Part shown: positions 3,001 through 55,700 of the stretch, piece after piece
How the letters are laid out: every line of letters starts with the position of its first letter
How positions within the stretch are numbered: the stretch's first letter is position 1
Source: Amoebophrya sp. A120
Taxonomy: Eukaryota > Protista > Dinoflagellata
Direction of reading: 5' to 3'
Length of the DNA stretch: 64,000 bases
Assembly (NCBI GenBank): GCA_905178155.1
Contig: CAJINV010000003.1
Span: forward strand, 6,939,612 to 7,003,611
Made by a program: the position numbers and the translations under genes
The notes under the pieces: model-generated
Database searches by the model: none
What the model saw: only the letters and a program-made list of their open reading frames with translations
What the model was told of the DNA's origin: nothing

Positions 3001-6000
3001 GAAAAAGCGCTTCTTCCAAATCTTCAGGTCTGAAGTTGTCGTAACGGGCGCGGCGGATGCACCAGCGGGTTCTTGGTGCCGCAGCTGCCACTCGGTTCCT
3101 CCAGTCTCCTGCACCTCCTCGAACCCGTCAAAGCCGTAGTACTCCTCGGACGAATGCAAAAACGGGTCGCAGTAGTCCGCGTGCACGCATCTATGGAAGT
3201 GTCAGGATCGAAATCGAAAAGGTTGAGCTACTAACTTGCCATGCATAAAATGGATGCCAGTTGGAGCCCAGTTTCCAAGAGGCGCATGACAAATTTTTCG
3301 AGCGCCGGAATTCAATCTGTCATGCTGTTTGGGCGCAGAAGACTGCTTTTGTCATGCTACTTTAGCAAGTCTATTTCAAATCCTAAACAGGCTCACAATC
3401 GGCCTCACTTGCCATCCCCGCAAGACAGACACAGGCACCCCATGCCTTACATTTTATGCATATACAAGTTCTATTTCGATTTTGTCGATTTCGGTCCTGA
3501 CGCTTCCATAGCATCGCAAAACCACGTAAACGGTGCACTGCACACGGGTCAGAAACTCGACACGGGACGCATCCCGGACTAGGCCGGACACGAGCTGGAC
3601 CCGGCGGTGCCACGCTCCGAGGTTGGCCTCGGCGGGCGGCAGTACCTGGTAAAACGGTGCGTCGCTAGACGCGGAGAAGCTCTTCACTTCAGTCTCTTCC
3701 GGAAAGGCTTGCGTGAGGTTTCGCCAATGCCACCCCTCGGAGGTCAGCCTCGCCTGCCGCAGATTTATCTCGTCAAGATCCACATCCTCGAAGTCAAAGC
3801 TCGTTGCGGTGTACATGGCTTGTCGAAACTTGGAAATATGGACCACCGGCTGGAGAAAATTCTTTCGGCTGCCCTCCACGGCGCGAATGGGAAGGTCGGC
3901 CACAAGTCCAGCTGATGAAGCGTGCGACCCTCCGCCTAGTTGCGCGCCACCGACGAGAAAGCTACCTAGGCGCTCGCTCGAACCGCGCACCCAGCCTTCT
4001 AGAGGCTCCGCCTTGCAGCAAAATGCGCTGCTCATACCGATACCGACGTCCGCATACTGCGAGATACACCGCTGAAAAGCTGAAGTTTTTAGCTCAGAGG
4101 GAATGAGTGTCATCACGGTTTTGGGAAAGGGCGCCCAACCGTTAAAGTTGTTGTCGCACATTGCGTTCGGGGTGGTAGACGCGGCCATTGAGTGCACGAC
4201 AAACGAGTACAGGCTCGCTGATTCCCAGCTGGACGACAACGACGAGGAAGGCACGTTTATTCCATCTTCGCTGCTGGTGAAGTGGTCGAATCCCGCTGCA
4301 TCCAGGCGATGCACATCCGCGCGGAGGAAGGTTTCGTAGCTCGTCAAGGTTGACGCTGCGGCGCTGCCGAGATCTTGTTCCGGGTTTTGCTGATCAACAC
4401 CAAGAAGCGCCCCGCGACCTGAACCAGCAAGCTGTTGCACGGTGAAGGTGAAGCAATCCGAACTGAATCCCTGTACGCGCATCAAGAAGCCCGCGCAAGA
4501 ACCCGCCGCATCCTCTCGACACCTGATCGCGCACTCGGTGGCGGTTTCCACGGCGGAAATGCTGGAGGAAAACGAAGAGCCGAACACTGCGGCATCAGGG
4601 GTGTTTTGCTCGTGATCCCAAAACAGCTTGCGGCCCGTGTTATCCAGGGGCCACCCGCTCCCCACGCGATAGAATCCGAACACGGGAGCGGCGACAAGGG
4701 CCGACGAGACGTGATGCCCAACCACGCGATAGCAATGTCGCTCCTGATCCTGTCCGCTTCCACTGGCATCAGTCCACGAAAGCAACCCACGAAAGAACCG
4801 ACACGTGCCCCGCACCGGACCTTGACCCGTAAACCGGTCAGACGCAAAGTACGTGAATCCGGAGCATGCACCGGTCCCAAACGCAGTGACAAAATCAGCA
4901 CAGAGTTGCATGCACGTCGCTGGGTTGCCGGACGTGGAGTAGGGTCCCTGGAGGTCATCGTCCTCGACCAAGTCGTCCGGATAGTCAACCAGAGTTGTCG
5001 TGCGCCTGATGAGCGGTGGGATCGTTCGCCAATCATTGACTTCGCCGCCAGTGTCAGCAGGAACCAAGACTTCCAGGTCGACAAGCGCGCTCATGTTCAG
5101 GATTCGTGTTCCACTGCAAGCGGAGTTCGTTTCTACGTGCCAGTGCAGCGCAGTCCCGAGCCCCACGAAGGCGCCTGCGTTAGTATCTTCCACCGCGGTA
5201 GAGACCATCGTAGAGGAGGAAGACGAGGAGCCCCCCGCGCGTTGTTCTTGTTCCTCCGTCGTTCTGCCGAGTGCTGCAGTTGTGCCGGTTTTCACGTAAC
5301 AAGACTTCTTGCCGGAGGCGCTACTGGCGGTGTACTGCACGTCTTCACTTGTGGCCACCGACGTGGTGGTTGTTCTACTGATGTCGACTTGACGCATAAG
5401 CCTCACTTTTGTTCCACCACGGCAGGAGGCCGAGGACGGGGAGGACCCGCTACCCACGGTAGTGTCTTGGCTTTCGGTTTCGCCACCAGCTTGCTGTGCG
5501 TCGACGTCATCTTCTGTATACTCGGCTTCGTCGGACCAGCTCGTGAAACCGGCGCAGTCAGAGTAACGGTTGCACAGAAGCTGCCCCTCGAGTGCGGTCA
5601 TACGTTGCCGAGTTACTCCAGCGCAGGAATTTCCCTCGGCGTCGTCCACGTCTCCGTCGAGCACCACGTTGCGGCACGCAGGGTAGCGGGCATCGAATGG
5701 GGTCGCGCACAAATAGCCCAGCTTCGTCGCAGCTGAAGTTGTGCCACCCGGCATCGCATCAGGAGACGCCGAGCACTCCACGCCGAGGACGACCTCGTAG
5801 CGCGGACCGTCTGCTGTGGGGAATGTAGGAGGAGGGGACGAGCTCCCCATGGTGGAAGCTGAGAAACCCGGCCACCAGGGAGCGTCCGCCGCACCGCAAG
5901 AGCGGGAGCCTCCCACTTGGCCATGCCGGAGCAATTCGAGTGCCAAAGCGGACAGCTCTCGGTCTGGGGTGCAAAACTCGTCCGCAGCGTCACCGCGCGG

Positions 6001-9000
6001 ACACTGCGTCCATTCTCGCCCGCTACTTGTCACGCAGTGCCCCTTGCCTTGCGGTGGCAGTTGGTCGGTCATCGGATCAGACAGGTCTAGGCTGCGATAG
6101 CATCGCCACTCGTAGTGCTTGTGATTGCCGTCTGCGTCGGCAATAGCGACGTGGCGGGCGTACGAGAGCACGGAGAGCACTGTGGAGCACTCAGACTGCT
6201 CGAGGTACTCGTCATTCTCAAGACTTTGGCAGTATGCGTCAAGACTCTCCTGGAGATTGCAAGACTGCGACGCCAGATCGTTGAAAAATAATGAAACCTC
6301 GTCCTGTAGTTGCGGACTAAAAAAATCCTCGCGCCCGTCTTCAGTGTCCTGTTGAAACAAAGAGCGATGGCGCGAGGCCCCGGAGGACTCGTGGAGCTTC
6401 CTGTTGCCGGTGGTGTCCTCTTTGCGCATGCTCTTGAGCTTGTCCTTCTTGTGACTTTGCAGCATTCTTGGTTGCGCTTTCGTACTACCAGGAGACTTTT
6501 TTCTTCGTCCTGCTCGTAAATCTCGAAGAGAAAGAGATGATCTTCTTTGCTTTGCTTTTCTAGGCGGCCACGAAGTGGTAGAGGACTCCGCAACTGCGCG
6601 ACGTCGAAAGCCTTCATCCTGCGGTGCTTCCAGGAAAAATGTGCTATCGCCATTGAGCAAGCTTTCTGCAGAGCTGAGTGACGTAGACGAAACCAGAATA
6701 CCGGTGCGGTTATTCAGCGCGTCCGTGCCGGAGTCGACGCGATACAGGGCATCGATTGGTCCCATCCGGGATTGCGAGCCGCCCACAGGCCAGGCGAATA
6801 CGGCGTCAAACTCGTGGTCGAGCGGGTCGCGCCAGGTGGTGTCGTAGAGCGTTGCTTTTGGTTTTCCCGTGCTGTCTCCGACGACGAGGCTCAGGTAGGA
6901 CCCATACCGAAGGTCGTCCCACACCCCCGCGAGCTGCGCCGCACCCCAGTCGCTCTCCTGCGGGAGGCAATCTGCGCAACAGAACCCGTGTCTTTTCATG
7001 TACACGGACCCGTCGGCAAATCGCAGCTCGGGGTGGCCATACTCCGCCGCACACAGGAATGCGGCGTACGTGTTTCCTACAAAATTCTGGCCACTGCTGG
7101 GGTTGGCAGCGGCATAAGCCTCCAAAATGCTCTCGGCGGTACTGTGGTCAAACTCGAGCCGATCCTTCATAGCTCGCATTATCGGGAGTTCCACGGCTGC
7201 CTCGGTGTTCTGAGCGGTGCAAGAAAACTTTCCGATGGCCGCTATCGCCTGACTTTGTTCACTTTCAGTAGACCACTCGTCGAAGATAGTAATCGTGCAA
7301 TACCGATTGCGCAGGTTTCCGTGTCGCCCTTGATCTACGTCATTCGGCTTTTGGCGTCGACCACTTGGGTGGTCGAAATTAGTGTCTCCAGTGTGGTGTC
7401 CCTGGTCCTTCCGGTCATACACCCGTTCATACTCGCCAGCGTACCGGTCCGCGATTCCGGCAGCTTCAAACTGCATTTGGCATTCTCGGTACCTCGGGGC
7501 TTTGTTGGTCGACAAAGAGCAACTCGTATCCAAGGAAAAAAAAATGCTCCAGTGACACACTGGCTGCAATTTCAGCAAGAAGCCAAGATAAGAACACCAA
7601 CACAAAGTTGTCCTGCATATACAAAGAAGACTTGCAGCTGCAATGCGAAGATCATTATCATAGAAAAAACAAAGGAACACGCATGAAAAAACGAGGCTCG
7701 CACGCATTTTTTGCTTCGCAAACGTTAACTCTCTTGCTTGTCATACAACACATCAGGGTGTAACAACTGTAACATTTTTTTCGCGCGATAACTTTCCGGA
7801 TACTTCGGGCAAACTGCTAATTCCGTCGGGCAGCACGTCTCCACGCTGCACGAGGAGGGCTCGTCCGTTGCGCAGAAGTTATCCAAGAAAAAAGTGTGCA
7901 AGTGTATGTGTAAACTTGTGCTTTGGATGATGCAAGACTGTCGCACCTGTTATGCTGGATATGCATCCTAGGTCAGTTCAACTGACTCAGATGCATGCGT
8001 GCTGTTTCCACGTACTAGCTGCGCGTGAGACAGGTTTCCTCTGTAATGCAACACGAATTTCTTGTTCTTGTAGAAGTGATGCAGCTGCTTATGAACATGA
8101 TGATCCGATGGAACAACAGGTTACACTAACACAGTTTTTTTCTTGGATAGAAGTTATTCCAGTTGTAATAGCGCTTGAAGACGTTGCCCCCGTTTTCGTG
8201 CGGTTGGCACTGCGTTGGGTCGTCGCGCACGAATCGGAGCGTGTTCCTGTCATTGTACTTCACTCTGTCATTGCAAGAGAAGCGCGGCACGCAACAGTCT
8301 TCCTTCGTGCAGTTACGGGCGAACGGACCCCAGCACAGGTTTGTCGGCTTCAAGTACTCCGTCACAGGATCGCAGGTGACCAAATCGGCAGCTGCCGCCT
8401 CCGCGCAAGAAGCGAGTGGCATCGGGCAGCACTGTTCCTCGGTGCAGGAGGTCGTACTGTCGTTCGCACAGCGCTGCAGGTGGTCCGCATGCGTGTTGTT
8501 CTGAAAGTAGTCAAGGAAGGCTTTGCGAAAGTAGAACTTGTCCGAGTGCGTATACGGAAGATGGCTCACGTACCTGTTCCCGGGACCGTGTTTCTTCCAG
8601 TACCTCCGGTCGATATTTTTGATATAAACCGTCTGGTCATTCGTCAAAAAGAAGTGCGGGTTTGCGGCCATCTCGAGGTAGATTCTGGTCCAATTGTGCG
8701 CATTCAGTGGCAGCGTACTGGCGAAGTTTTTAAAGCGACGCCCCGCGTCGCAGGAGTGTTTTAGAAGAACCCTTTCAGTCCCGTTTAAGAAGAAGTCCGT
8801 CGATCTGTTCGCGGCGATTTGTTCCAGGCTCGGATTCCTCGTACTGTGGGCCGACCGTAGGTCGATCGTGCGGCTGATGTTCCGGTGCACTGCGGCCAGT
8901 GGCCGGATCACGTCGCCGGAACACACGCGCTGCGGCGTGCAGCACTCCTCCGGCGCACAGCTCTCGATGCTCCAGTGGCGGCAGAACTTGCGGGTATCTA

Positions 9001-12000
9001 GAAAGTGGTGCCGCGGGCAGATGACATTTGTTTCTGCAGTGCAGGGATGGAGGGGCATCGGACAGCAAGTATCGACTGTACAACTCTCCATCGTGCTCCC
9101 GAAGCAGAATCTGGTAGCATTGAAGTACTGGCGCAACTCAGTATTGCAGTGCTGCTTCAGTCGCACGACCGGTTGCAACACGTCCGACAAATCAGCTGCT
9201 CCCACCCACAACACCTCCGCCCGTTCCGCCACGGCAATATCCGGCTGGGTTGCCAGAAGGCTGGGCACTACGACGGCCGCCGTCGCCAGCTCGTTCTGCC
9301 CCGATGCGATTATGGGCCCCTTGTAGCGCGAGGGGGTGGTCGTGGTCGTTGTAGAGCTCGTAGTTGTGGTTGTCGTTGTGGCGGCTGCAGCTCCACCACC
9401 CATTCCCTCCATCCCACCACCCATTCCCTCCATCCCACCACCAGGTGGATCACCCATCTGCACACGTCGTCGCAGCAACGGGGGTGACAAGTCAACGTCC
9501 TCGGTGGATAGCAGCTCTGCGGGGTAATCGGCTGGCAGTGGAAATTTTTCCAGCACACTCGTTAGGGGGACCACCACGCGCGGCCCCTGGCCACAAGTTG
9601 CCGCCAAGGGGCAGCAAACGTCGACGGAGCAGGACTCCTCATTCCAGGAGGTGCAATTGGCCTCCCTCACGAAGGGACGCTGCTCCCAGGGGTGTGCCTG
9701 GTGACGCAGTTTGCAGTCTTCGATTACCCGTTGGGAGTCGGCGCAGGGAAAGCGAACAAACTGGCAGCAGGAGTTGAGATCCCTCTCAACGGTGCAGCGG
9801 TCCGTGGTGCAAACTTGATTGGAGCGGAACTCGGTAGCTGCATGTCTTGCTTTCGCGAGCGCTGTGCACTGCGCAAGCATCGCCGTCTTCACGTCCGCTT
9901 CCGCCTCCCCACAGCGCTGCCGCCGGGGGCAGCACTCGTCTGCCTGGCAAGTTTCTCCGCGGCAGGTGTGCGCGGCGCGGAAATATCGCTTGCTGTCGGC
10001 TTGCTGCCGGTCCGGGAACAACCGAGGGTCGTCCAGCGCCCACAAAACGCCGCGCGTTCCCGGTGCGGACTGTATAGAGGGGAAGTGAAATAAGTGAATG
10101 CCCTTCGTCGCCGCACGAAAAGTCCGTCCTTTATGCACATTTTCCTCGATCAAGCGGGAAATGCGCACAAAGGAGCACGGGGCGTTATTTTGCAACTTGT
10201 CATGCACAAAAAAGCTGTGCACACAGGATCAGGAAGGACGAATCTGTCACTGTCCCTGTCTGGAACTGGTGGATCCTTTCTGCATGACAAAATCAAAAAG
10301 CTAGTTTTTTGCAGAGATCAGTCAGCTCCAGTATGCGCTTTGGAGTAGCTACCAGTTTCGGCACACATTTCGCAGCATAAAAGTGACGCCCATACTTAGA
10401 CTTACACCTCGCCCTGGAAGTAAAAATATTCTTTTTGTTCCTCGCTTTGGGGGTACGGATTACCGAAACCAATACAATGTGAATATGATGATCATGATCA
10501 CGATCGCACTGAAAGACAAAGAGTAAGCGCAAGGACACTCACTTAATGCCCTCCTCCATAAACTGCCGCGTATCCGTGCAGTTCCACGCTTCCAGCTGAG
10601 GTGGAGGCACCTCGCGGCACTGCTGCCGCACCCGGCAGCACTCTTCTTCGAAGCAGCCCGCGCCGTGACACAGGTGATCCGACGCGAAGGTGTAGAGGGT
10701 CGGAAGGTGCAAATCCACCGCAGAATCCAGCGCGTCATCGAGGAACTCCAGGTCGTCGTCGTCCGCTTCATCGCTCGGCGTTGTCGTCGTCGTCGACGGA
10801 GGGGCGGGAATACCCGGCGCAGGCTGCAGAACCACTCCATCGGACATGGCAGCCCCACTTTCGTAGAGCGCGCCGATTTCCAACGGCGAGAGGCTGCGGG
10901 CAAAGACGGCCCAAGACGCAACTTCGCCGCGCAGGAACTTGCAAAAGGTGCACGTCCCGTCCGCAGTGACGGCCCGATACCCGCCCATCTGCAGGAACGC
11001 ATCGGCTCCCTCGACGTGTGTGGCGGGGACTGTCGCTGGCGTCTGGCTCGAGATCAGTTGCCCGTTGATGTACAGCGTGTTTGCGTTGGATGCGGGGTCG
11101 TACGTGGCAGCAAGAAAATACCAGTCGCTACCCTCTGACGAAACGGGGGATGTCAGGTCGGGGAGATTCTCCACGACCGCGGATACGCGCCACACGTCGA
11201 GGTGGAGTTCGACGCTTTGACCACTTGTGGCCACACTGAGATAGTACTGCGTGTTTCCAGTCGCTGGAGAACTCGGTCCATACCCGAAAACCTGTCCGTG
11301 CACGCTCTCCGCCGGAGCACCTGCGTATGCATTGCAAATATGTCTGGATCATCTGGACGAAATGGTGGAATCAATGCAGCAATAAAAAAAGGCAAAGAAT
11401 TGCGTGGTCGTGCCAATAAAAGCTGTCGCCCATAATTTCGGGGTCGTGCTACGGGAAAACGAGTAGCGAGCCAGCGAGCCTCTGGCACTGCTCATTTGGG
11501 TGGAGAGGCATCGAGAGCCTGGAAAAAAACTCGTATTGCCTTTGCGTCAAAGTAGATTCCAGACGATGATGAATCAGTGTGAACATAAAAATAGTGATCT
11601 TCGAACAAAGAAGGTGCATGACAACAAACACGCACGCCGCAATGAGGTTTCAGACTCTGACTCAGACATATTTGCGTTTGGTACGGCGGGGGCACCGTTA
11701 AGTTTGAACCAGCCCGCCAGGGTTCTCGCGGCAGCTCCCCCGGGTATCTGATAGGGATTCATGCCCTCAGCGTCCACAATCGGGGCGCGGCAAACCCCGT
11801 CTTTTTCAAAGCGCAACACCCCAAACTCCGTTCTTGTCCCAGAGTGGTCGACTCTTTCCGAGGTGCCCCAGCGTGACCCCAAGTGCTGCTCCATCCCGTC
11901 AACGCAACTCATGTCTGGGCCGATGCGTCCGCGAATGCGGTTCTCGCCGTCGTCACTCTGAACATACGCTGTCTCCTTGTCGAGCACGTAGAAGGCGACT

Positions 12001-15000
12001 GCTCCCGGGAGAATCTGGCGCTGCTTTCGGCAGAAGACGAAGTTGGTCGTGTAGGGCAGGGAGTACGTTTTGGTATTGTACAGGATGCACTTGCCTTGTG
12101 CGCCGACGCCGAAACCGAACTCGTATGCTTCACAGTCCGCCTTGTTGTTGCACCTTACTGCGCACGCGCGCGCGTCGTTCACATCGCGACCCTGCACATC
12201 GCCTCCGTCGATCACATCCGATCGCTGGGATAGGTCCGCATCGTAGTCTTGGTAGCTGTGTTATGCACTGCAAAAGTATCGTACTCGTGCTCGTCGTATC
12301 AACGCATATACAAATTTTCTCAGCATGAGAACTGGATTTTGTCATGCTGTTTTACTTTGAGGACAAGGTTTGTCATGCATAGTTGCAAGTACTACGAGTA
12401 CGATAGCGATACGTTTGCAATGCATATGTGTTCCCCCCCGCCAAACGGATCCGCGTCGCCGTTACCGAATCCTTGGTCCTCGCGCGGAACGAACGCATAC
12501 GCGAACAAGGCTTGATGTTGCTCGGCAGCATGAGATGCCAGTGCTCCCTGGTCGTCGCAGGTCTCGGGCCCGGGTCCTTTCCGGAGGTAGACAGAAATGG
12601 CCCATGCTCCGCCACACATGCCATCCTCGGCTGGATCGTCCCCACCAGCGCAGGGTCGGCAGGTATATTCCGGGCCGCCCCGCGGCAGTCCCGTGCCCGA
12701 GTCCGAACCAGCGCCGTAGTATCGCGTACCGTGCAACGGCTCTCGTGTAGTGGAATCTCCCGGGCTTCCCCAAAAGTAGGACCACGAAAGGCTGTTTCCA
12801 TTCTGGATGCCGAAGAAGGCAGGGCCGGCTGCCGGTTGATCTGCTCCTGCTGTGTTGATGGGCGTGGCCGCAGTCCGCGCCGCTGCCCGATTCACGGACA
12901 CGAGGTCACCCACCCCGTTATTCACCGCCGCTTGAGTGTACCCGTGTTCCTCCGCCGCGTGATAGTCGAACACCAGTGCGTTATCCAGCCAACCCATGGC
13001 CTGTTCCTGGCTACTTGCGTCTTTTGTTCTGTAGCACCCTACATAAGTGTACTCGCTTGATGACGTTTGGCTTGCGTCAGGCGTGGTCAAGGCTCGACCC
13101 GTCGTCCGCGCCGAGAAGGGTCTGACATACGCTGCCGCTGTCTGATGTTGAGTGCTGTATTTTTTCTCGGAGATCTGTTCTTGATCATGAGCACGTGTTT
13201 TTCGGTTGATGTCCACGACGTCGGGCCTTCGGCTTCTGGAGTACAAATTCCCGTTTACTACATAGTCACCATTTCTTCCATCAAGTACAACAAGTTTGGA
13301 CGGCGACGAGGCGGCATTTTTCATCTTCGAGAGCTTAAAACCCCGTTGCGGTAGTTCTTCCGTAAGTTCTTCCGACTCGGCCTCGGCACGGCTTTTTCTG
13401 TTGTTGTTTTGATGCAAAAGTCCTCCAGTTACAACCGTGCTCCGTCTACTTTCCTTATTTTCGTTGGTCCCGCTCTTTTCCTTTTCGTGAGATCGTTGAG
13501 CCAGCATAGGACGTTTGGTTTCTTCACGAGAGTCTCCTGTGCTTTCCTGCAAAAGAAGTCTCTGGCTTGGTTGTCCCAGATCAGACACTCCTGTTCCAAG
13601 ACGGATGGCGCAAATCAGCGAGAAAGCTGATTCTGCTACTGCTGATACATTGGCAGCTATCGCCAGTACGCCCCTGTCGGCGTCGATTGAATAATATCTT
13701 CTACATACTGTTTGCCCGTTAGCGCTTTCCTGCCACTCGTACATGGTGCATGCGGGGTGGTTGTTGCACTTCTGTGCGCAGACACCGTGCCGCAGGTTCA
13801 TGTACTGTCTGCGAGTTTTTCTACTGTTTGGATCGAAAGTGTCTTCGTCTACCCGGTTCTCATTTCCGGTTTTTAGCGCGCCGCCCTGATCCACGTGGCG
13901 GCACGCTGACGAGTAGTAGCGTCTGTAACCAGCGAAGGTAACGCTGATCATAGAAGGCCGCTCCCCGTCCGTCGCGGTATAGGTTTGGGAAGTCGGCTCC
14001 GCTACTGGCGCGTAAACGGGAGGAAGCGCCATGTAAAAGTCATGCGGTCCGCGAGGTTGGTGCTCGAGCGCTCGTTCGTCTTCTACAAAGAGCTGAAGGC
14101 CGCACCAGCATATATATCTCTCTTTTTCCGGATCGCCCACGAAACGCATTTTAGACCCTAAGGGTGGCAGGTTGATCCACGTTCCCGTGGTGCTCAGTGT
14201 CGGCACGGAAGCCACCGTCGTTACGTCATCCACACTAATCGAATGATTTGCCCCCAACTGATGGTTACCAGGCTCTCTGCGTGTCAGCGTCATCCCGAGA
14301 AAACGCCGCGTTGGTGGAAATTCGATCTGCCAGTACAGTTTGTTCTCGCTAGCGTCGTCGTCCCGCATTGCTACGGGGCAGTTCTGTTTTTCCCAGTCTA
14401 ATTCTGGACTAGGCGCAGTGGATACGTCAAGTGTCTTCTTGCTTTGTTCGACGGTCTGCAAGCTTGTCCGCCACGCTTTCGACCAAGACACGGTCACAGC
14501 GTCGATTTCTGTCCTCACCCGACGAAAGGGAGTTGGTCGGCGCCAGACTTCGACCTCGTAAAACGTGAGACTGCGATTGCTTCCTGGGGCTCCCACCGTG
14601 ATAATCTGTCCCACGGCCCCGCCGCAGTCCACGCGCAGCGTGGACTCCAGTGTGTCCTGCACGTCCTCGTAGGTGATCTTGCCGCAGCGCCAACCCGAGT
14701 ACAGCTGGGTTACTGGGCACCTACTCTTCTTGTCCCCTACCCAAACCTATCAAATGCAAATATGTCTGGGTCTGGAAGAGTGCAAACTTCTTTATGCATA
14801 TCTTCCATGCCCCATAAGGTTTGGAATGCAGGACCTAGCATGCCAGGTTCTCCTGCGACGTCTCTAGCTCTACCATGCCTATCCTGCATCACAAACTGCC
14901 TCTAAACTTGTTCAAAAGTGGACAGCTTTTGGTAGTCATGCAACACAAATTTTTGTACGATCCAGACTTAGCATAACAAGTTCGCGTCCCCCCAGACCCA

Positions 15001-18000
15001 GGCAGACATATTTGCAATGCATAAAACCTCGATTCCTTGGTCGCACCGGGCGGGGTAGCGCGAGCAGTCATGTGGGGTCGGGTTCTGGCCGTCCGGCCCA
15101 ACCGTCATGTTGGAGAAAAGAGCGTGGAAGGCCCGCCTGGTTTCCACGTGGTTCGGATCGTGAGGGGAGAACCGGTGGGGACGGGGATGTAGGTGTAACA
15201 CGACGTGGCTGATGGATACTGGCGTCGCGTACTCCTGAGTTAGCCGCGCCCCCGTTCCAAAAATGTGGCACGGCGTCGTCAAATCCTGGTCGACGCAGGG
15301 CACAGCGCCGCCAATCCCGGCAGTGGGCCTGGTGTCGAATTTCCCTCCCTCGACTGGCCGCGGTAGTAACTCGAGTTCCATCGCGGACTTGACGTAGCAG
15401 GTGCGGGACGAAAGCTCCGCGGTTGCTGCGTCTTTGATGGTCGCGATACCGGCAAGGCCCTCGTTGTTCCGTTCGAAGATTTGCAGGCAGCGCGGGAGGA
15501 GCCCCTCGGCGTCGTTGCCGCTAGCGAAGGTGACCCCAAGGCAGTCGGGGTCTGCCAGACATTCCTCGTTGCAAGAAGTGTCCGTCTCTGCGTCGCTGGA
15601 GGACTGCTCAGCGAACACTACGTCGTCGATGACGGAGGTCGCGGTCGAGGATGAAGTAGAGGCCGCACAGTCCGCTTTGTAGACCCCGACCATGCGGTGT
15701 TCCACGGGTTGCTTCTGGTAACAGCGCGGGGTGGTCAAGACCGGCCGACCTCCGTTGGTTTCGTTCAGCACTGGTTCACTTCCCCGCAACACGGACCGTA
15801 TTTGCAGGCCGGGTTTCCCGAGCGCGGCACGATTCACGGACTCCAGGACCAGTGCGCAGCGCCCTCGGGGGTTCGCTAGCGGCGACAGATCCTCGGTCTG
15901 GTTGGTCGTGAACTCGATGGCGAGGCAATCGGGCCGCGAAAAGCACGCCGCTCCGCACACCCGTAGACGGCACAGGCCGTCGGAGTCGGCGTTGTTCGCG
16001 GCCTGCGAGGTAGAAGTAGTTCCACCCGCATTCATCTTCTTCACTGCTCTGCCGGTGCTCTCCAGCGCGGAGAGGTGGTCGTAAATTGAGTCCGTCGCGG
16101 TTGGCGAGAGTCGCGGCAGGTCTTTGAGATCGGACGCGATCAATGGCTGCAAGTGAAAGTTCTTGACCGAGCCAGTTTTGAGGTACTCCACGCGGTGGCA
16201 GCGATTCGCCCCCATCCAGTGCAGGTTCCAGTCCTTCCACAGCATTTTGCGGTGAATCCATCCCGCCTGGCCGTAGGTCGCGTGGTGGTCGACAAGTGCG
16301 GTGCAGGTATGGTACTGGCGGCACACCACGGGCGGGTGGTGCGTGTAGTCAACCGCCCGTACGTCCGCGGTTTCCAGGTTGCGGTACTGGTAAAAGTTGC
16401 AGTCTTCGTGGCGGTCGCACCAGAGTTGGCACGCGCGCCTTGACGCGAGAGGAGAGCCCGGCAGCTCCGGCGGTTCGTTATAGCCGCGCTTCTCGCGGAT
16501 CGCACCCTCCGCGCACACCCCGTCCCCGGGGGGAAAAGCGGGTTCGTAACGGTACTGCACGGCGGGGCCGCGGGTAGTGGTGGTGGTGGTAGTGGTGGTC
16601 GCGGCTGCGGCCCAGGGGGCCTGGTCCCGGAGCGGCTCTCGCTGCGCATACAACAGAAAACCACAGATGTGTAGCCTCATCTCGGTGTTTTCCACCGCCG
16701 CAGGCAGCGTCATGTTCAACGTAATGTTGCTGAAAACTTTCCGGTGAAGAAAAACGCGGGTTCCGTCAGGGCCCTCGTCGACCACGCTGCTGGCCTGAAA
16801 CTGCGTCACATACTGATTGTCCACAAACACGCTTACCACGCCGTTTGTTGTGGCCAATGCGCTATTCGCCTGCTGATCTTTTCGCCCCCAAATGCGAAAC
16901 CACCGCACGTAGTCAGGGTCTCCGCCTAAGCGAACCGACCAAGTGAAGTTGCGCCCTGAGCGAATCTGGCCCGTCGCACTGCACGTGTGATTCCCAATAG
17001 TAGTCCCGTCAGCAAGCTTCCCCAGCGTGGTGGCGCGGAGCCCGATACTTTCGTTTGCTCTTTGGTCGAGCAGCAGAGCGGTACGGTTGAACAGCAGTGG
17101 CTTCATTGCTTTGCTGTTACTCAAGGTCACATTGTGACCCGGGGAGAAAGGATGTTGATACGCCGTGAGGTTGTCCATCATCCGATGTAGCTGCTTGACG
17201 CAGGAGCGGACGCTGCGCTGACTGTGCCGCGTGTCATTGTGCGCGTTAGCTGCGACGGGCCGCGTCCAAGTTCCCTTCGGCACGCAGTTATTTTCGGTAG
17301 AGTTTGCGGAGCGGAGAAAGACGACGCCGACACAAGGCTCCGGCCCAGACCAGTCCGCGCACAGGCTGACGCACTCTTCGAGATTGGCCCAGTGTCCGGG
17401 AAATCGGCCAAACAGACCGCCGCCGTCGATACTGCCACCCGGGTGATCCGTTTCCATCTCGGGCGGAGGACAGACCAGGTGCACGTCCACCTCGGCCTGC
17501 CATGCCTCCGTCAGTGCCTTTTGGACTCTGTCGGCGTCCACCGTGCGGAACATCGGCGCCCCCCCTGTTGTTGCGCCCCCACCATTGCCCGACGTGTACG
17601 CCGCGCTCCCGCCCACGGAAAACGTATGACCTTGAAGCGGAAACCACGCAACCAGCCCCCTCGCGGCGGTCCCAGTCATATCCTCTGGGCGCAACGCCAG
17701 AGCGTAGTCCCGGATCTGCGTCTCCGTTCGGAGAGTACTCCAGAGACGCACGTTAAAAAATTGGTCCTCGGGATCCACGCCGTGACCGAGGGTCGCATAA
17801 AATTTGACCTGGCGAAAACCTGGTCCATCGGTTCTCGTGCCATCCAATTTTCCGTTGATGTAGAAGTTGCCCATATTTTCGCCTAGCTGGTACGCGACGT
17901 GCTGCCAGCGTCCTGTCATGAGACAACTCGATTGAAAGGCACTACCTACGACCAAGACTTTCCAACAACTCCAACCGTCCGGTCTCCAAATTTGCAATCC

Positions 18001-34663: not shown

Positions 34664-37041
34664 TTTCTTATCCCGTCTGCTTCCTCGACGTCGCTCTTTC
34701 CCGACTTTTGCCGAAGCTCAGCTGGCTTTTAGGTCTCGACGCTTGTAGTAGAGGTGGACCTGGTACAACAACTTCTACAACCCGCGCGGCGGGCTGATGC
34801 CGCGAGGTGGCGCAGGTTCAGAGCAGAGGGTGCCATGGTACAAAGGTAGGGGTGGGGCATATTTCAACATCAGATAGAAAAACTTGAAAATAGTGTTACT
34901 GTAGTGTCACATAGTACAGATGATAAAAAGTGCGACCACGATAAACGTCACGATAGGTCGATAAAAAATGCCAATGTTTTCAAGTTCGGTGAAACAATGT
35001 CAGCAAGTGCCAGAGGGGCACGTGACCCGAGGTATCTTTAGTACCAACAAGAAATTTCTGCAACTCCATGAGCTTCATCATATTTTTCTTGGAAGAACTT
35101 ATTCTGAAATTTGTATACTACAAGAGATCAAAAATTACGCATTTCTGCCTCTGACTTTAATGGATATAGAACTTTATTTAGAGTTTACTACCAATAAGAG
35201 ACGAACGGGGGGAACTACAGGGAAGAGGGGAAGATATCATCAAGACCGCGAAACAACGAAACAGACGACAAATGACGACACTACACGAAATGAACGAGCT
35301 TTGCTTTGAATTTGAAGATGTATACAAAATATTGAAAATGTCTCTGCCGACGCTTATTTTTCTCGTCAACCTAGCCCACAACTACTACGTAAGATAGGTA
35401 CAATCCACGAGCAGGTGCGAGCCTCATAGACATACGGAGTTGTTGAATAAATATAAGATCAATGATGTACATGTAGATCGCCGCTTGGCTCACACTCTAC
35501 GTCTACTACATAAGATGTTGAAAATATAAAGAGGTGGATGAAATAAATGAAAAATTGAAAAGAATCGGATGTTGATGAAATTTCTCTAAAAATGTGGGGC
35601 TTTCCCATGAGGAGAGCACGAGTCTCATGAGGACACTGTTTTGATTGATATTAGCAGTCCAACAATCGTTCAGATGCAACTACGTATCCGGCGAAGTTTA
35701 CTAGATTACTGTGACGCGTTGCTTTTGCGATCGCGCGTGCAGGTAGAGATAGCACCGTCTTTGTTTTTTTAAAACCGAATCATAGTTTTTTCTCAGGCCG
35801 GTATGATTGATTCTGGTCCTAATGGTAGTGTTCTTGCTGTAATAGAGTCATCTTCTATAAATTTGCTGTCGAGACCTTATTCCCCTTGACCAATAAAACC
35901 ATCCCCCTGAAAAAAAGAGCTTGCTATCAGGAGTAATTCCAACCAAGATCACGAATATGTGGAAAGCCATAAAGGGGCTCTTATAGACACCGAGGAAGAG
36001 CTGGGGAATTAATATGTAAATCTAAAGGACTCTCATGCAACGGACTCTATCACTAACTCAAGGGCATATAGTACAAGAATCGATTCGTTAAGGGGTTGTG
36101 GCGTAACCATTCAATATTTCTCTTGGTGATGCACTACTTCATCGGCATCGCGCCGTAAATTGTGGAGTCTTCCAACGCCTAGGCCGCTACCAGTCGTATT
36201 CATCGTAGAAGTCGTAATGCTCGAAAATAAAAATGCTCAATGGCGTTTTGCAAGCACGACGTTAATACTGGTCGTTTAGAAGTATGACATGCGCGCACAG
36301 ATTCTGCGGTCAACCGATTCAGGCTCTCTTCTAAATGATGTCACGCGGATGGTGTACTTCGACAGGTAAGTAGTAGATCAAACAGCCTGACAGCGGCGTG
36401 CTCTTCTATGCATCATTGCCACTCGACGTCTAATCGTAGCATGAGTGCTGGCGCGCCAATATTTTCATCTAACCGAAGAAAACACAATTCTGTGACCGAG
36501 ATTCGACTTTTGTCGCAGCCGAAGGTGCGAAATCAAGAACACATTCGATGCTGTTCTCTTCTTTTTATTTGTTACAACTGAGATCATGAAGCAATAGCAG
36601 ACGCAGCAGAGCCGCGCCACCAGATGGTGTGTTGTCCTATTGGTTTTTCTTAAAATGCCGCACTGGAGGAAATAATTGCACATGTACCTATAGCCAACTC
36701 ATAGCGGCACAATCGCTTCACTTGTAGGATTGATCTTCACGTCGAGCGCAAAGAAATTAGGCATGTTCTCGTTACCTTTTCTTCCTTCGTCTGTGTTATT
36801 GATTCCGAGATAAAACTGTTGCACTTCGCTAGACCGCATTCTCATTGTTGTCAAATTCACTTTATGTTGTGGTGCGTCGTAGAAGTTTCTTTGTCTCGTC
36901 CTCCTCATCCTCAGGCTCAGCTTCATCGTCGCGACTAGTTAATAGCTGTAAGCTGCAGGTGCTGCCCTCTCATCTTCAAGGATCGCATTCTTTCATCATG
37001 ATTATTTTCCCAACATGATATTACCATCAAGTAGTTTGGAA

Positions 37042-37266: not shown

Positions 37267-37610
37267 TTTGAAAACGATGGATGCGACACCTTTGCGATTT
37301 GGATTTCACGGAATTTCAAGAGGTTTGCTGTTTTGCTAGTTCTGTTGAAATTTCTTTCTCTGCGTCTGCCTGCTAGTGTTGTATTCGATATGTCGCGACA
37401 TACAAGATGGAACTCGCGCACTGCTCACCCAATCAAAAAAGGAAATGCTGGAGATGGACGAGCGAGAAGTCGTGCCGTATGGCAGAAATAGAGCTGAAGC
37501 CTATAGCAAATAGAGCAGAGATTTAAGATTTTATTTTTATACCGCAAAGCTACTGCTTCTTTGTCTTTGCCAGCACGCGGCAACGTTCAAATCGATAAGC
37601 TAAGTAACCT

Positions 37611-49788: not shown

Positions 49789-52700
49789 TTACGTCGCCAC
49801 GGTGGCAGAAGAGCTTGCCGGTCCAGAGCTTTGCTCGGAATCGCGCTGCCGCTGCCGCTGCTCCGCGTCCAGCTCCGCACGAATACGCTTCTGGTCCGCT
49901 TTATGGATGTGTCAGGTTTGAAATCGTCAGAGTTGAAATAGTTTGTCATGCTAAACCGACCGAAACCACTACACAACCTGTAAGGGCACCTCACCGCATA
50001 AAATGGATGCCAGTTGGAGCCCAGTTTTCAAGTGGCGCATGACAAGTTTTGGCGGTGCCTAAATTCAGTCTGTAATGCTGTTTGGGTAAGGAAGACGCCT
50101 TTTGTCATGCTACTTCAGCAGCTGTATCTCTACCCCTCAACAGGCTTGCAATATGCCTCCCTTGCCTACTCTGCAAGACAGGCGCTTTGTGGGTTGCATT
50201 TTATGCATCGCAAATTTTTTCAACTTTGACGATTTCAATCCTGACGCTTCCATACGCTTCATTGACGGGAATCTCGGTCACGTTTTGCTGCTCGCCGTAT
50301 CCACAAAAAAACCACCATCCCCATCCAATTTGTCATGCAAAACATGTATAAAATCCTGTGTCTGTCATGCATAAGATGGATGGGGATGGTTGTTTTTTCC
50401 TGGATACGCCACTGAGAACCCTCTCCGCGTACTCAATCATGTCTTTGCACTCTCGCATCAGCTTTTTGCAGTCACAGCTTTTCTCGGTGCGAAAAAGTTC
50501 CAGGGCTTCCCCAAGTAGTTTTTTCCCTTGCGTGTACGAGTCAGCCTCGCCGCACCAACACAAAAATTCTCTATGGAAACGTCAGGCTTGAAGTCGTCGA
50601 GGTTGATATAAATATGGTGATATCAATTTCAATTTCCGTGCCAACTACAAACCGACCGACACAACAAACACAACTCGTGGGGCACATTTCCGCAGATGGC
50701 CAAGCCAATGGGACGCAGAGTCAAGCGGACCGAAGCCACCACCATTAGTATCCTTGGATTACCTACCGTAAAGGAAGCCACCACGACCTCCAACAATTTT
50801 CTACGCGTAAAACTGGCAGCAGTTGGAGCTGGGTCCCTAACTTCTTCTTCACTTGGAGGTCACGCATTGCAAATGCTGGGAGCGCCCGGATTCCCACAGT
50901 CATACTGTTTGGGGCACCTCCGGTGCGCTTGTTCGCGATGCTATGGCTAGTAACCCTGAACAGGTCCACAATGAAGCGACCGCGTTTGCCTTCTCTACAA
51001 GACAGGCACTTCGGGCCTCGCTGCATTTTGATTTTATTGAATATGTATACGTATGCATCGAAAATTATTTTCATTTTGAGTTCGTCGACTTCCAACCTGC
51101 CGCTTTCGTATTCGCCCGCGAGTTTGTAGAAGACCCCGGCGTTCCCATCCTGCTTCACGGCGGGGTCCTTTTTCAGGCGCTCGGAGTATGCTGTTTGAAA
51201 TCATCTTCACCCAGTCGCGGAACGATCAAGCACGATCAGGATCCGCATGCATAGCGAAAATGGTGCAAAGCCCTAACTGTTGATGCCAATCCTCGACACC
51301 CACACGACCACACTACGAATAAAACGCACCCTCCTCGTTACGAGGTTTTAATAGTACCTTGAGAGTACCGTTGGGGAAGATTTCATCAGTACAACTCACA
51401 GAGGATACTACTCCCTCTGTCACAACAGGCGTGAACTCGCGAAACTCCACCCGATTTATTGTGTCAACGTGGTGCGTTATCGTTTCCATCAGAAAATTAT
51501 GGCACTCCATCAGCTGCAGTATGTCTACACAGTCCTTCCGCACTGCGATTTGGTAGGCTTTTTTGAGATGTTTCCGCGCTTCCAACCTCTTCGTCGAGGT
51601 AGTGGAGGACGTTCTGGCGGCCTTGGTAGAAGAAGTCGGCGTCGCGGTCGTGGACGACGAGGAGGTCGTACTTGCACCAGTAGGTGCAGCAGTGGTCACA
51701 TCCTCAACTGAAATCCCATCCTCGCCCTCCGTGTCCGGAAAAGAAGAGGTCGAAGCAGACATGCGCCACTATGAATCGCTCAGGTGTTGCAATCAATCTC
51801 AACCAGATCTGGTGCTAATGCATTCATATATCAAGAACAATCTGTTGCTGGGCAGGATTTCGACTTATTTTTTCTATGTAACACATAAAACAGCCAAATG
51901 CCTGCAGCTCTCTGCGGTCCTCAGACAGAGCAGGCAGCACATGAAGACAAGGTGTGAAGAATTCGCGGAACTACACCCACCAGCTGCACTGCATCCTAGT
52001 ACTCCGCGTGTCCTGCTGTCTCTGGTCGTTGGTCCAACGCCACCTGGTCGTTGTTTCACCAACGTGAAAAAGTTCCGTTTGCCTGGTAACTACAGTGAGT
52101 TGAAATGGTAACACCCAAGCGAGTCATAGCCATTGGAGACGTCCAAGCTCCTGGTACCCCGAGCACGTCAAAGGACTAAATGCGCCGCAAGTCACTTCGT
52201 AGCAATGAGACGCCTCCTTCAACAGTTGCTCGGCTTCTGCTTCTCGGTCTCGGCCGAGCTGCGCTAGTATCTTTGCGAGTGCGACGCCCGCTTTTGCCTG
52301 AAGTGAAACAGAAATGGCACGAAAATGAGACTCCAAAAGTTCATACATTTCGCGACAATGCAGCAGGATCCTCCAGCATCCGTGGTTAGACGAAGACTAC
52401 TTAGCATCGCTGGGCTCACTTCAACTTTACTTCAACAAAAACAGAAAATAATCATCCAACAGAGGACAAGGAGTGTTCCACTTTCGCAGAGTACATGTAG
52501 TGCTACTAGTGGCTGCGGCATGTCCCCGAAATATTAAAATGGAAACCTGCAGGCTGTTTAGCTGTCCGCCGGAACGGCGACGGTAAAACTCATAGGCTTG
52601 TCGAACAATTGTTTCGGCCTGTTCGGTCTTCTGCTGACGATCTCGTACAAGGCCAAGCCCCAGCAAAACGCCACCCTTTTGACTGGTTGCAGACTCGTCA

Positions 52701-55700
52701 TTTTGACAAAATTTCAGGGCCGCGGAAAAGTATTCTTCGGCTTTTTCGTAGTTCCCGAGGCTGAAAAGCGAGAAGTTTAGCTTTGTTCTTGATCAGGAGC
52801 ATGCATGCGCTGCAGTATGCATGTTCGTGAGCGAATTCAAATCATATCGGTGGACCTTAGAACGTGTCAATTGCTTAACTTTATCTTTCGTAAAAGTTGA
52901 AATTAATCATGGTAGACGAGAGGACCGAGGAAGTTTACAAAGTCGCGACAACATCGAAAGACGATGGCGACGCCATGGTGACGATGTCGACCTTGCAAGG
53001 GGAATGTTGTAGTTTTTGACACATCGCGTGTCAATCCACTACTTGCAAGAGCAAGTATGAGCAAAATTATAGCGACAGCAATATCTACCCTGCAAAATGA
53101 AAATCTACTTCTCCTGTGTCTGTCCGTCGCTTGTATATCTTATCATTTTAAATTGTAGTACCTGTTATAGGTGTGCGCAATGTTTTCGCAGAGGGCGCCG
53201 TTCGGACCCAGCATGTCTTCCATCTCCAAGAAGAGCGGTAGTGCTTCTCGAAATTGGTTTTTCTTCCACAGCACGAAAGCGTAGGCCTGGATCCCCTTCA
53301 ATTTGTACTTGGACTGCGGGTGGGCGCGACAGACCGGCACGATCTCCTCCAGGTACTTTGCAAGCATATTGAGGCGGTACAGCTGAATTGAGTTGTCAAA
53401 CAGCTCAAAGAACTTGTCCAGTGTTTCCGGGGCGTTGAGTCCTTTCGCCTTTCGAAGGTCCAAAAATTCCCGCTCGAGAATCACCTCATCGTTCTCGTTC
53501 TTCGCGGCATTTTCCGCGTCATCGTCGGGGTTGAACTCGCCGCTGATCACAGACTTCAGCTGAAAAGTTCCAGCATTCTTGCCGGTGGAGGGCGGCCCTC
53601 CTGAAGAGGCTTCGACGCCGTGCGGGGCACTAGATAGCTCTTGCTGCATATGGCTGTTTCAGGATCGAAATCGTCAAAGGTGAGACGATTTGCAATGCAT
53701 AAAATGCATGACCCGAGGTGCGTGTGTTGCAGAGCAGGCAAGTGAGGCCGATTGTAAGCCTGTTTGGGGTTAGGGCTCGAGCTGCTAAAGTAGCAGGAGA
53801 AAATCGGTCTTCTTTGGCTAAACAGCATGACAAACTGGATTTAGGGACCACTAAAATTTGTCATGCGCCATTTGGGAACTGGGTTCCAACTGGCATCCAT
53901 TTTATGCATGACAAACCATTTCAACTTTGAGGATGTCAATCCTGACACATCCATACTGCAGGGAGCTCCGGAGGGCCGCGGCTTCCCGCTTTCCCACACA
54001 TTTCCACTTCTTCCCGGCGGTTGTCTTCACCAGCGTCACGCTCAGCTGTTTTTTGTCGACCTTCTTCAGCTTTTCAAGCTGCCAGGCGCTTTCGTCCACG
54101 TCAATCTTTCCGATCAGCTCGTCCTCAAACAGGAGCTCTTTGCTATGGATGTGTCAGAGTTGAAATCGACAAAGTTGAAATAATTTGTCATGCATAAAAT
54201 GGATGCGAGTTGGAACCCAGTTTCCAAGTGGAGCATGACAAATCTAGGTGGTCCCTAAATCCAGTTTGTCATGCTGCTTAGGCAAAGAAGAGCGATTTTC
54301 TCATGCTACTTTGGCAGCTCTAGCTGTAGCCCCCAACAGGCTTAGAATCGGCCTCACTTGCCTGCTCTGCAACACACGTGCCTCGGGTCATGCATTTTAT
54401 GCATTACAAATTATTTCAACTTTGACGATTTCGATCCTGACACTCCCATATTTGCCGATCACAACTTTCAGCGAGTCCTTGCGAATGTTGCAGTGGACGT
54501 CTCTCGTTCTTTGGCCATGTCTATTCGTCTCCCTGTGCTCGCATAAGAGCACTGCAGCAGCCGGGGCAGAGACGCCAAAAAGAAAGCGCTGCGAAGCAAA
54601 TGCAATTAGGCAAGAAGGCGCGAAGGCAAGGGCGAAAGGACCAGGCCGAGAGCTTTGGCGCGTCTATCCGGCAGGCGCGTGAACTCTCCGGCCTTTTCGG
54701 CAGAATATAGACGGGCTGAGGGCAGCAGAGGGCGCTCGTCTTTTCCCCTCGGCCCCGCTTCCCAGGGTCTATTTGCGGAGTTCCTTGAGCACTTTTCTGC
54801 GCTAAACTTTGCTTATCACGGTCGAAAAGTGGCGCTCGGTGAGTTTTGGGGTGAATTTTGAAAAGGACGCCGGTGAATTTTGTCCTCCGGCTCCTTTTCA
54901 AAATTCGCTAGCGCGTGAGAAACTCCGGGTTTTGGGGCTTCAACAAAGTGTCGCCAAAACAAAAAGTCCCAAAATTCACCAAGGGAATTCTTGACCTGGG
55001 GATCACGTCGAATAAGACTTGCTCCGGGGGCAAAAAGACACGTGGGGAGTTGTGAGCAGAGCACAGCAGGCGAAGCAAGCTAGCGCCCGCGGCCGAATCG
55101 TGCCTCCCCTTCCACCCGAGGCTGCTCCCAGATATCCAAGTCCAAGCCGAGCCAACCACAACTCGTGAGAGCATACATGTTGAACTAGTGCCCCTGTGTT
55201 CAGGCGTCGCCCTCCCTTTCGACCATTTCGGAGAGGAACTTCTGAGGCAGACGCGCAGAAGACTAAGAGCCCCCCGACCCACCTTCTCTGGTCGCTAGAT
55301 ACGCACTACACAGCCCGGCGAGCCCCCGCAAGACCACCTCTTTTGGTGCTGCAAGCGCCACCACGCGACGAGCAGCCCTTCAGGCTATGTGGTATGCTTG
55401 GGCTCGTGTCCATACGTAGCGCTCTTTTCTTTTAAGTAAATGCAAGTCATGCAATACAAACTCACTGCAAATTCACACTTCTGTACGCTAACGACCGTTG
55501 AAGACATAGGTTCTTTGCCGATCACAACTTTCAGCGAGTCCTTGCGAATGTTGCAGTGGACGTCTCTCGTTGACACATCCGGGGCGCACATGAAATCGAG
55601 CTGCAGCTCTTCATCGTTTTGGGAGAGCACAAAATTGCTCCCGCTCGAAGCAGCAGTAGAAGCGGACGCTGCGGGCGCAGAGAGATTGGAGCAGGAGCTT

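What the first reader, a model, noticed from the sequence alone, without database searches (positions are those of the whole stretch)
3192..54450. The same element works as an intron in both orientations
All host genes are on the minus strand, yet family B occurs in both orientations. Internal ggatgccagttggagcccagttt (or a close variant) reads on the plus strand at 3192, 49902 and 54144, and as its reverse complement at 29447, 32191, 33874 and 53649. Family A copy 14748 is the reverse complement of 24473 and 33353. Spliceosomal signals (donor, branch point, acceptor) are strand-specific, so orientation independence implies the symmetric TIRs or the hairpin carry the excision information (inference).
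Basis: partly seen in the sequence, partly recalled or inferred. Interest (0 to 1): 0.85.

Follow-up and report, generated by a model that had tools for sequence, protein, structure and literature searches.

The report
Amoebophrya transposon introns work both ways
Small hairpin-ended transposons sit in genes of the marine parasite Amoebophrya either way round and are missing cleanly from transcript assemblies in both orientations, likely because their mirror-image ends show the splicing machinery the same signal each way; the elements are already published, and two-way transposon introns are known from other algae.

Summary
Observation confirmed. Families B, A and a third family (D) occur in both orientations in minus-strand genes of Amoebophrya sp. 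A120 (100% protein match). RNA contigs skip element + 5 nt exactly at 14 elements, including opposite-orientation copies of B (3192, 58332) and A (14748, 995); a DNA run shows none of the joints listed for its stretch. Removing 22 introns gives one 9,162-codon frame holding both orientations of B, A and D; keeping any one breaks it. In another assembly, 32 strand-called B copies split 20:12. None of the 7 named B copies can be read GT/GC-AG. One cut fits all 14 junctions: 1 nt before TAT, 4 nt after ATA; this scan found that register before on other pieces of this genome. So the symmetric ends likely carry the signal. Short linear end motifs read by a relaxed spliceosome fit slightly better than a hairpin ruler, but this is unresolved, and splicing efficiency by orientation was not measurable. 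These are the published A120 introners; two-way introners are published for Aureococcus and Polarella. I did not find the orientation point in print for Amoebophrya.

The parts
3192..3510 (+).
   Evidence: RNA contigs X1-X3 skip 324 nt = 319+5; retention breaks the ORF
29447..29758 (-). Family B introner, orientation 2
32191..32497 (-). Family B introner, orientation 2
33874..34180 (-). Family B introner, orientation 2
49902..50254 (+). Family B introner, orientation 1, with a 46-nt internal insertion
   Evidence: Absent from annotated protein P0001; homologue P0002 reads straight across; no RNA contig seen bridging it
53649..53955 (-). Family B introner, orientation 2, in the CS/TPR gene
   Evidence: Absent from P0001; lies in a poorly conserved stretch; no RNA cover
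54144..54450 (+). Family B introner, orientation 1, 188 nt from 53649; follows a 58-nt duplicated exon piece, so it may leave alone or as the 3' part of a longer intron
   Evidence: Nine homologues align without a gap over the junction, one of them starting just after it; duplication
57322..57662 (+). Diverged family B introner, orientation 1, 3' end ATT
   Evidence: Removal extends the kinase ORF from 432 to 648 codons; RNA joint not listed, only indirect
58332..58671 (-). Diverged family B introner, orientation 2, TSD 3/5
   Evidence: X1 skips 345 nt = 340+5 with 1 nt of ambiguity; orientation score 62 vs null max 30
50572..51110 (+). Diverged, expanded family B derivative, orientation 1
   Evidence: absent from P0001
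14748..15023 (+). Family A introner, orientation 1
   Evidence: X1-X4 skip 281 nt = 276+5; could also be read GT-AG inside the TSD
995..1606 (-). Family A introner, orientation 2, with an internal insertion of about 340 nt
   Evidence: X1-X3 skip 617 nt = 612+5; orientation
24473..24740 (-). Family A introner, orientation 2
33353..33623 (-). Family A introner, orientation 2
12262..12426 (+). Family D introner, orientation 1
   Evidence: X1-X3 skip 170 nt; 72% identical to the reverse complement of 33665
33665..33817 (-). Family D introner, orientation 2
   Evidence: ORF test; orientation
10073..10560 (.). TAT..ATA intron with TSD mismatch at sense position 5; sets the upper bound of the cut register
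   Evidence: X1-X4 skip 493 nt; allowed k 0-4
2210..2799 (.). TAT..ATA intron with diverged TSD; sets the lower bound of the register (with 11326, 58332, 62590)
   Evidence: X1-X4 skip 595 nt; allowed k 4-5
1..34717 (-). Giant host gene: 9,162 open codons after removal of 22 introns, running off the window
   Evidence: RNA contigs of 25-29 kb bridge the left part; LamG and PAN domains
49792..55950 (-). Host gene: CS + TPR protein, 676 aa, identical to an Amoebophrya sp. A120 record
56609..59591 (-). Host gene: protein kinase ORF, 648 codons after removal of 4 elements

Best explanation
These are non-coding TIR transposons (introners) of Amoebophrya A120 that lie in exons either way round and are missing precisely from RNA contigs in both orientations, likely because the inverted ends give the same transcript ends each way and a relaxed spliceosome likely reads them as short signals, cutting at an inferred fixed position 1 nt before TAT and 4 nt after ATA. 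Shown: both orientations in the same genes, 5-bp TSDs, skips of exactly element + 5 nt, no GT-AG rule, one register compatible with all 14 RNA junctions. Inferred: insertion by a DDE transposase or integrase that duplicates 5 bp with little target preference; the 5' end N-TAT(G/C) acts as a donor with +1 relaxed; the 3' end (T-rich)...ATA-NNNN acts as a ruler, possibly with the A at -7 as branch point. Because 1+4 equals the TSD length, removal restores the exon exactly. The stem may help by bringing the ends together.
For: RNA: 14 TAT/TAC..ATA elements skipped at element + 5 nt, with opposite orientations for B (3192, 58332) and A (14748, 995). DNA run X8 has depth 0 at all 7 X1 joints listed for 57.7-63.6 kb, and its contigs run into the element ends. 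ORF: 22 of 22 introns are needed for a 9,162-codon frame. Register: k>=4 from 2210, 11326, 58332 and 62590; k<=4 from 10073; k=4 allowed in 14 of 14. All 9 predominant A120 motifs in Farhat Table S4 begin N-T, as this register predicts. No splice-dinucleotide preference: +1 is G33/C28/A21/T20 and the acceptor is AG in 9 of 102 strand-called elements of another assembly. B copies there split 20:12 (32 called of 59; binomial p=0.22), by a strand rule that was right in 24 of 24 calls on 32 window elements. For linear motifs over a long stem: no G-U excess over A-C on the transcribed strand (88 vs 106 in 137 elements, p=0.22; arm duplex energies equal); the terminal 20-nt duplex is no better than shuffles for RNA-spliced 7527, 10073 and 62993 (z -1.5, -1.2, -0.9) and for annotated intron 51183-51408 (z -0.1), which keeps G-TAT...ATA-NNNN. 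A120 has nearly all spliceosomal proteins plus U2, U4, U5 and U6, with U1 undetected (PMC7789003).
Against: No lariat, branch or snRNA data: spliceosome involvement is inferred. Most elements do form strong terminal stems (17 of 21 at z <= -2.4; whole-intron z -5.9 and -10.9), and the weak ones other than 51187 still pair partly or further in. The two ends are almost equally conserved (5' TAT 130 of 137, 3' ATA 131 of 137; +4 T>C 6 vs -7 A>G 1, too few to separate), and my finder required one intact end. The upper bound on the register from RNA rests on one junction (10073). The only orientation-2 B copy seen skipped in RNA is a diverged one (58332); the near-identical opposite pairs rest on reading frame or annotation. 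X1-X3 are one sample with RNA status guessed by the tool; X4 (another study) confirms only 4 joints, none of family B. Contigs cannot measure retention.
Confidence: 0.6

Rival explanations
1. Hairpin ruler: the paired TIR stem itself is recognised, by a non-spliceosomal nuclease and ligase or a remodelled spliceosome, and cuts are measured from its base (1 nt 5', 4 nt 3'), as proposed for euglenid nonconventional introns. A stem forms in either orientation.
For: Strong stems in both orientations. Nearly symmetric end conservation. No +1 G or AG preference. U1 not detected in A120. Euglena introns use complementary triplets at fixed spacers (N3-CDG / CH'G-N5-6; PMC12501133 abstract passage).
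Against: No G-U over A-C bias on the transcribed strand. Four introns with weak terminal duplexes keep TAT/ATA at the same offsets. N-TAT(G) lines up with the GTAC starts of 2 of the 3 canonical introns examined.
Confidence: 0.27
2. Each strand of the interior carries its own conventional branch point and pyrimidine tract, and ordinary GT/GC-AG sites are co-opted from the TSD, as in Aureococcus and Polarella introners.
For: 14748 (GT-AG) and 33353 (GC-AG) can be read canonically inside the TSD. Family B has CTGAC near both 3' ends.
Against: 0 of 7 named B copies allow GT/GC-AG at any register. AG acceptors are at chance level (9 of 102). The CTGAC lies inside the TIR, is absent from spliced 58332, and a yTRAy motif occurs in only 12 of 99 non-B 3' ends.
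Confidence: 0.07
3. The skips are reverse-transcriptase template switches or assembly artefacts across hairpins flanked by direct repeats, or the elements are absent at DNA level in part of the population.
For: Hairpin plus direct repeat is the classic substrate (established knowledge). One 58-nt hairpin skip at 60384-60441 does not follow the rule and may be such an artefact.
Against: The joined form is the main path of 25-29 kb contigs. Four junctions have only 1 nt of repeat ambiguity. All 22 removals are needed for the frame. DNA run X8 lacks the listed joints.
Confidence: 0.04

Closest known systems
Introner elements (IEs) of Amoebophrya sp. A120 (Farhat et al. 2021, PMC7789003; read: abstract, sections 10, 11, 12, 16, passages, supplement passages including Table S4 rows; figures not visible)
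   Same: Same organism. Inverted repeats starting TAT, 3-5 nt direct repeats over the junction, non-GT-AG ends, repeated families, predicted hairpin.
   Different: [quoted passage not shown] 3 legend). Here both orientations are shown and one register fits all junctions. Family B arms pair over about 57 nt, longer than the 8-20 nt motif, and lack the AAA run at positions 11-13.
Two-orientation introners of Aureococcus anophagefferens (Huff et al. 2016; not held, seen second-hand in PMC10228655 and the preprint below) and Polarella glacialis (bioRxiv 10.1101/2020.10.14.339549; passages read)
   Same: [quoted passage not shown]
   Different: Those carry or co-opt GT/GC/GA donors and AG acceptors and so need a particular target sequence (for example GHN6). 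The A120 elements show no such need at either end.
Euglenid nonconventional introns (review PMC11282704, section 6 read; PMC12501133, passages read)
   Same: Non-GT-AG borders, terminal stem, TSD-like repeats, complementary triplets at fixed distances from the cuts, likely MITE origin.
   Different: Motif CAG/CTG with 3 and 5-6 nt spacers, against TAT/ATA with 1 and 4 nt. Excised circles are reported there and untested here. Unrelated lineage.
Fritillaria borealis non-canonical introns (second-hand: PMC11282704 section 6; bioRxiv 10.1101/2025.08.15.670264 passages)
   Same: MITE-derived non-GT-AG introns whose splice sites correspond to TIR ends.
   Different: Removal by the U2 spliceosome is shown there and the ends are mostly AG-AC or AG-AT. 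Here the machinery is inferred and both terminal dinucleotides vary with the TSD.

Membership tests
Amoebophrya A120 introner elements | Host is Amoebophrya sp. A120 | tested here: met
   Window ORF 100% identical to a record named Amoebophrya sp. A120; the whole 676-aa protein maps to the window in 11 pieces
Amoebophrya A120 introner elements | Inverted repeat joining the 5' and 3' intron ends | tested here: met
Amoebophrya A120 introner elements | 3-5 nt direct repeat overlapping the exon/intron boundary | tested here: met
   Perfect 5-bp TSD at all 10 named copies; RNA skip = element + 5 in 14 of 14
Amoebophrya A120 introner elements | Removed from RNA with non-GT-AG ends | tested here: met
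   0 of 35 window elements are GT-AG at k=4
Amoebophrya A120 introner elements | Repeated in families | tested here: met
   10 B copies in the window; 59 distinct full copies in 62 loci of another assembly
Amoebophrya A120 introner elements | Descriptive consensus: TAT + 7 nt + at least AAA | tested here: inconclusive
   TAT in 130 of 137 5' ends; AAA run in families A and D but not in B, which keeps only the third A
MITE (non-autonomous TIR DNA transposon) | TIRs, constant-length TSD, short, dispersed copies | tested here: met
MITE (non-autonomous TIR DNA transposon) | Cognate autonomous element or transposase with the same TIR | not testable with these tools
   No genome held; the 984-nt TAT..ATA element has no frame over 107 codons
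Aureococcus/Polarella-type two-way introners | Create introns in either orientation | tested here: met
Aureococcus/Polarella-type two-way introners | GT/GC/GA donor and AG acceptor carried or co-opted from the TSD | tested here: not met
   0 of 7 named B copies allow GT/GC-AG; AG in 9 of 102
Euglenid nonconventional introns | CAG/CTG-type motif with 3 and 5-6 nt spacers | tested here: not met
   Motif is TAT/ATA with 1 and 4 nt spacers
Euglenid nonconventional introns | Excised as circles without a lariat | not testable with these tools
   No raw reads of this strain laid
U2-type spliceosomal intron | GT/GC-AG termini | tested here: not met
U2-type spliceosomal intron | Lariat through a branch adenosine; snRNP dependence | not testable with these tools
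   A at -7 in 35 of 35 window elements is a candidate only

The most novel reading that the evidence does not exclude
Amoebophrya A120 has a self-symmetric intron code. A TAT...ATA end pair with a 1+4 offset that equals the TSD length turns any insertion, at any exon position and in either orientation, into a scarless intron with no GT or AG, and a dedicated U1-independent or non-spliceosomal machinery reads it. This would be the most permissive intron-gain system described and a second, independent origin of euglenid-style splicing.
Probability: 0.25. Interest if true: 0.8.

Novelty: already known. Interest (0 to 1): 0.42.

Why it matters
How Amoebophrya removes tens of thousands of non-GT-AG introns is left open in the paper that described them. 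Near-identical copies in opposite orientations are a natural experiment: they exclude the interior as the carrier of splice signals and confine the code to the symmetric ends. With the fixed 1+4 cut this gives a short testable rule (minigene, lariat mapping) and explains the spread, since neither orientation nor target sequence seems to limit harmless insertion. The surprise is limited: the elements are published, and two-way TIR introners are published in two other lineages.

Tried and rejected
No whole genome was held, so the genome-wide sense/antisense count was replaced by 62 loci from one other assembly, found with an exact arm pattern that selects one arm variant. A Markov coding model for host strand failed its held-out check on the window and left 52 of 59 B copies uncalled; it was dropped for an ORF-span rule. 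Raw-read run X10 laid 0 reads, so retention could not be measured. Missing RNA cover over 49902, 53649 and 54144 is no evidence either way. End asymmetry (+4 T>C 6 vs -7 A>G 1) and the TSD mismatch gradient (11, 7, 6, 2, 5) are too weak to use. CTGAC as a general branch point was rejected: family B only, absent from spliced 58332. Element 7527 was entered one base short and corrected. Huff 2016 and Roy 2023 (journal version) are not held; Henriet 2019 was not tried. Farhat's figures, 2 of 14 Gozashti 2025 supplementary files and the bioRxiv supplements were not seen and could hold orientation data.
Full report
Observation. The window holds at least 35 short, lower-GC elements that begin TAT (3 begin TAC) and end ATA (1 ends ATT), with terminal inverted repeats and a 5-bp flanking duplication. 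Twenty with a perfect TSD and TIR score >=9 were found, against 0 in each of 10 shuffles. The motif lies on + inside 3192, 49902 and 54144 and on - inside 32191, 33874 and 53649; 29447 has a gapped variant. With TIRs trimmed, interior alignments confirm every stated orientation well above shuffled maxima. I add B copies 57322 and 50572 (like 3192) and 58332 (opposite), A copy 995 (opposite to 14748) and an opposite pair of a third family, 12262 and 33665. 54144 is 92% identical to the reverse complement of 32191 and 33874.

Organism and host genes. An ORF at 53161-53643 is 100% identical to a protein named Amoebophrya sp. A120. That 676-aa CS/TPR protein maps to the minus strand in 11 pieces and lacks elements 54144, 53649, 51770, 50572, 50298 and 49902. 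This is an annotation, not raw evidence. Homologues align without a gap across the 54144 junction, and P0002 reads straight across the 49902 junction; 53649 lies in a poorly conserved stretch. 54144 follows a 58-nt duplicated exon piece, so it may leave as part of a longer intron. Removing 22 introns from 1-36000 gives one minus-strand frame of 9,162 codons, and keeping any single one breaks it. That one gene holds B in both orientations (3192 vs 29447, 32191, 33874), A in both (14748 vs 995, 24473, 33353) and D in both. A kinase gene holds B 57322 and 58332 in opposite orientations; its frame is 648 codons with both removed, 432 or 397 with one kept.

RNA. Two stretches were laid: 44001-64000 and 701-15600. 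Contigs of X1-X3 (one sample; RNA status is the tool's guess) skip exactly element + 5 nt at 995, 2210, 3192, 7527, 7880, 10073, 11326, 12262 and 14748, and X1 does so at 57725, 58332, 59140, 62590 and 62993: 14 of 14 such joints. X4, a metatranscriptome from another study, shows 4 of them (2210, 7880, 10073, 14748). In the first stretch the DNA-like run X8 has depth 0 at all 7 listed X1 joints and its contigs run into the element ends; 72 further joints were not displayed. No DNA run was laid on the second stretch. Opposite orientations are therefore seen skipped for B (3192, 58332) and A (14748, 995).

A second set. An exact scan for the B arm returned 62 loci, all from one other assembly, with 243 distinct elements and 59 full B copies. 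A strand rule (longest spliced ORF across the junction >=120 codons and twice the other strand) was right in 24 of 24 calls on 32 window elements, with 8 uncalled. It called 32 of the 59 B copies: 20 like 54144 and 12 like 53649 (p=0.22; 18:10 after dropping 5 loci with inconsistent calls). L056 has three B copies, in both orientations, with a 263-codon minus-strand frame across each junction.

Where the signal is. With a perfect TSD the cut cannot be placed. Mismatched TSDs bound it: at least 4 TSD bases stay on the upstream exon at 2210, 11326, 58332 and 62590, and at most 4 at 10073; k=4 is allowed in all 14. The inferred intron is N-TAT...ATA-NNNN. I reached this before seeing the scan's earlier notes, which report the same register on other pieces of this genome; those notes are unchecked and not independent support. 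All 9 predominant A120 motifs in Farhat's Table S4 start N-T, which fits. At this register 0 of 35 window elements are GT-AG; +1 is near random and AG acceptors are 9 of 102 in the second set. None of the 7 named B copies can be read GT/GC-AG at any register, whereas A copies 14748 and 33353 could be (hand check). Since the interior flips and the ends do not change, the information must be in the ends.

Hairpin or linear motif. Both B orientations fold into long stems (z -5.9 and -10.9), and 17 of 21 elements tested have a terminal duplex at z <= -2.4. Against a strict need for the stem: mismatches on the transcribed strand are not biased to G-U (88 vs 106 A-C, 137 elements), sense and antisense duplex energies are equal, and four introns with weak terminal duplexes (7527, 10073, 62993 by RNA; 51183-51408 by annotation and homologue) keep TAT/ATA at the same offsets. 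N-TAT(G/C) resembles +2..+5 of a GTATG donor (recalled), 2 of 3 canonical introns examined start GTAC, and A120 keeps most spliceosome parts while U1 was not detected. I therefore favour short symmetric motifs read by a relaxed spliceosome (0.6) over a hairpin ruler (0.27). No result here shows the spliceosome acting.

What is known. Farhat et al. 2021 described these elements in A120, with TAT-starting inverted repeats, 3-5 nt direct repeats, non-canonical ends and an unknown mechanism. 'Orientation' occurs there only for gene order. Gozashti 2022 allowed for opposite-orientation insertion in its search. Gozashti 2025 lists A120 TIR families that co-opt both sites, with no hit for 'orientation' in 12 of 14 supplementary files. 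Two-way intron creation is reported for Aureococcus (Huff 2016, second-hand) and for several Polarella classes, with GT/GC/GA-AG sites. Searches found no paper stating orientation independence for Amoebophrya introners; subscription papers and unseen figures could hold it.

Verdict. Real and well supported. Member of the published A120 introner class; works like Aureococcus/Polarella two-way introners in orientation and like euglenid nonconventional introns in its fixed-offset symmetric ends, but is a member of neither. The added value is the constraint that the code lies in the symmetric ends and needs no target sequence. Interest 0.42.

Noticed in passing
window 1-34717 (-): One gene of at least 9,162 codons with predicted N-terminal hydrophobic stretches, LamG and PAN domains; RNA contigs of 25-29 kb continue beyond the window's left end.
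   Followed up: partly
window 32187-34510: Eight introners in 2.3 kb, separated by exons of 36-72 nt, all in frame when removed.
   Followed up: partly
window 60384-60441: X1 skips 58 nt across a near-perfect 57-nt palindrome with a 4-nt direct repeat; it does not follow the TAT/ATA rule and lies outside the long ORFs. Possibly a reverse-transcriptase or assembly artefact.
   Followed up: partly
window 59591-56609 (-): The kinase ORF has no in-frame ATG before its glycine-rich loop, although an X1 contig is continuous over 59248-60383; a further intron, a non-AUG start or partial splicing is possible.
   Followed up: no
window 54451-55571: A 58-nt exon piece is duplicated (54451-54508 = 55514-55571) around a ~1-kb stretch with high depth in the DNA run, likely another mobile element with a long duplication that must also be removed.
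   Followed up: partly
window 51183-51408: Annotated intron that keeps G-TAT...ATA-NNNN ends though its TSD and terminal stem have decayed.
   Followed up: yes
window 995-1606, 49902-50254, 50572-51110: Introners with internal insertions (about 340, 46 and 230 nt); 995 is still skipped exactly in RNA.
   Followed up: partly
window 43896-44879: 984-nt TAT..ATA stretch with a perfect 5-bp TSD and weak TIR; no frame over 107 codons.
   Followed up: partly
L001-L062: TSD mismatches by sense position were 11, 7, 6, 2, 5 in 102 strand-called elements; a hint that the intron's last base tends to match the exon's last base, too weak to claim.
   Followed up: partly
window 37611-37666 and 39004-39059: A 56-nt direct duplication 1.4 kb apart.
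   Followed up: no
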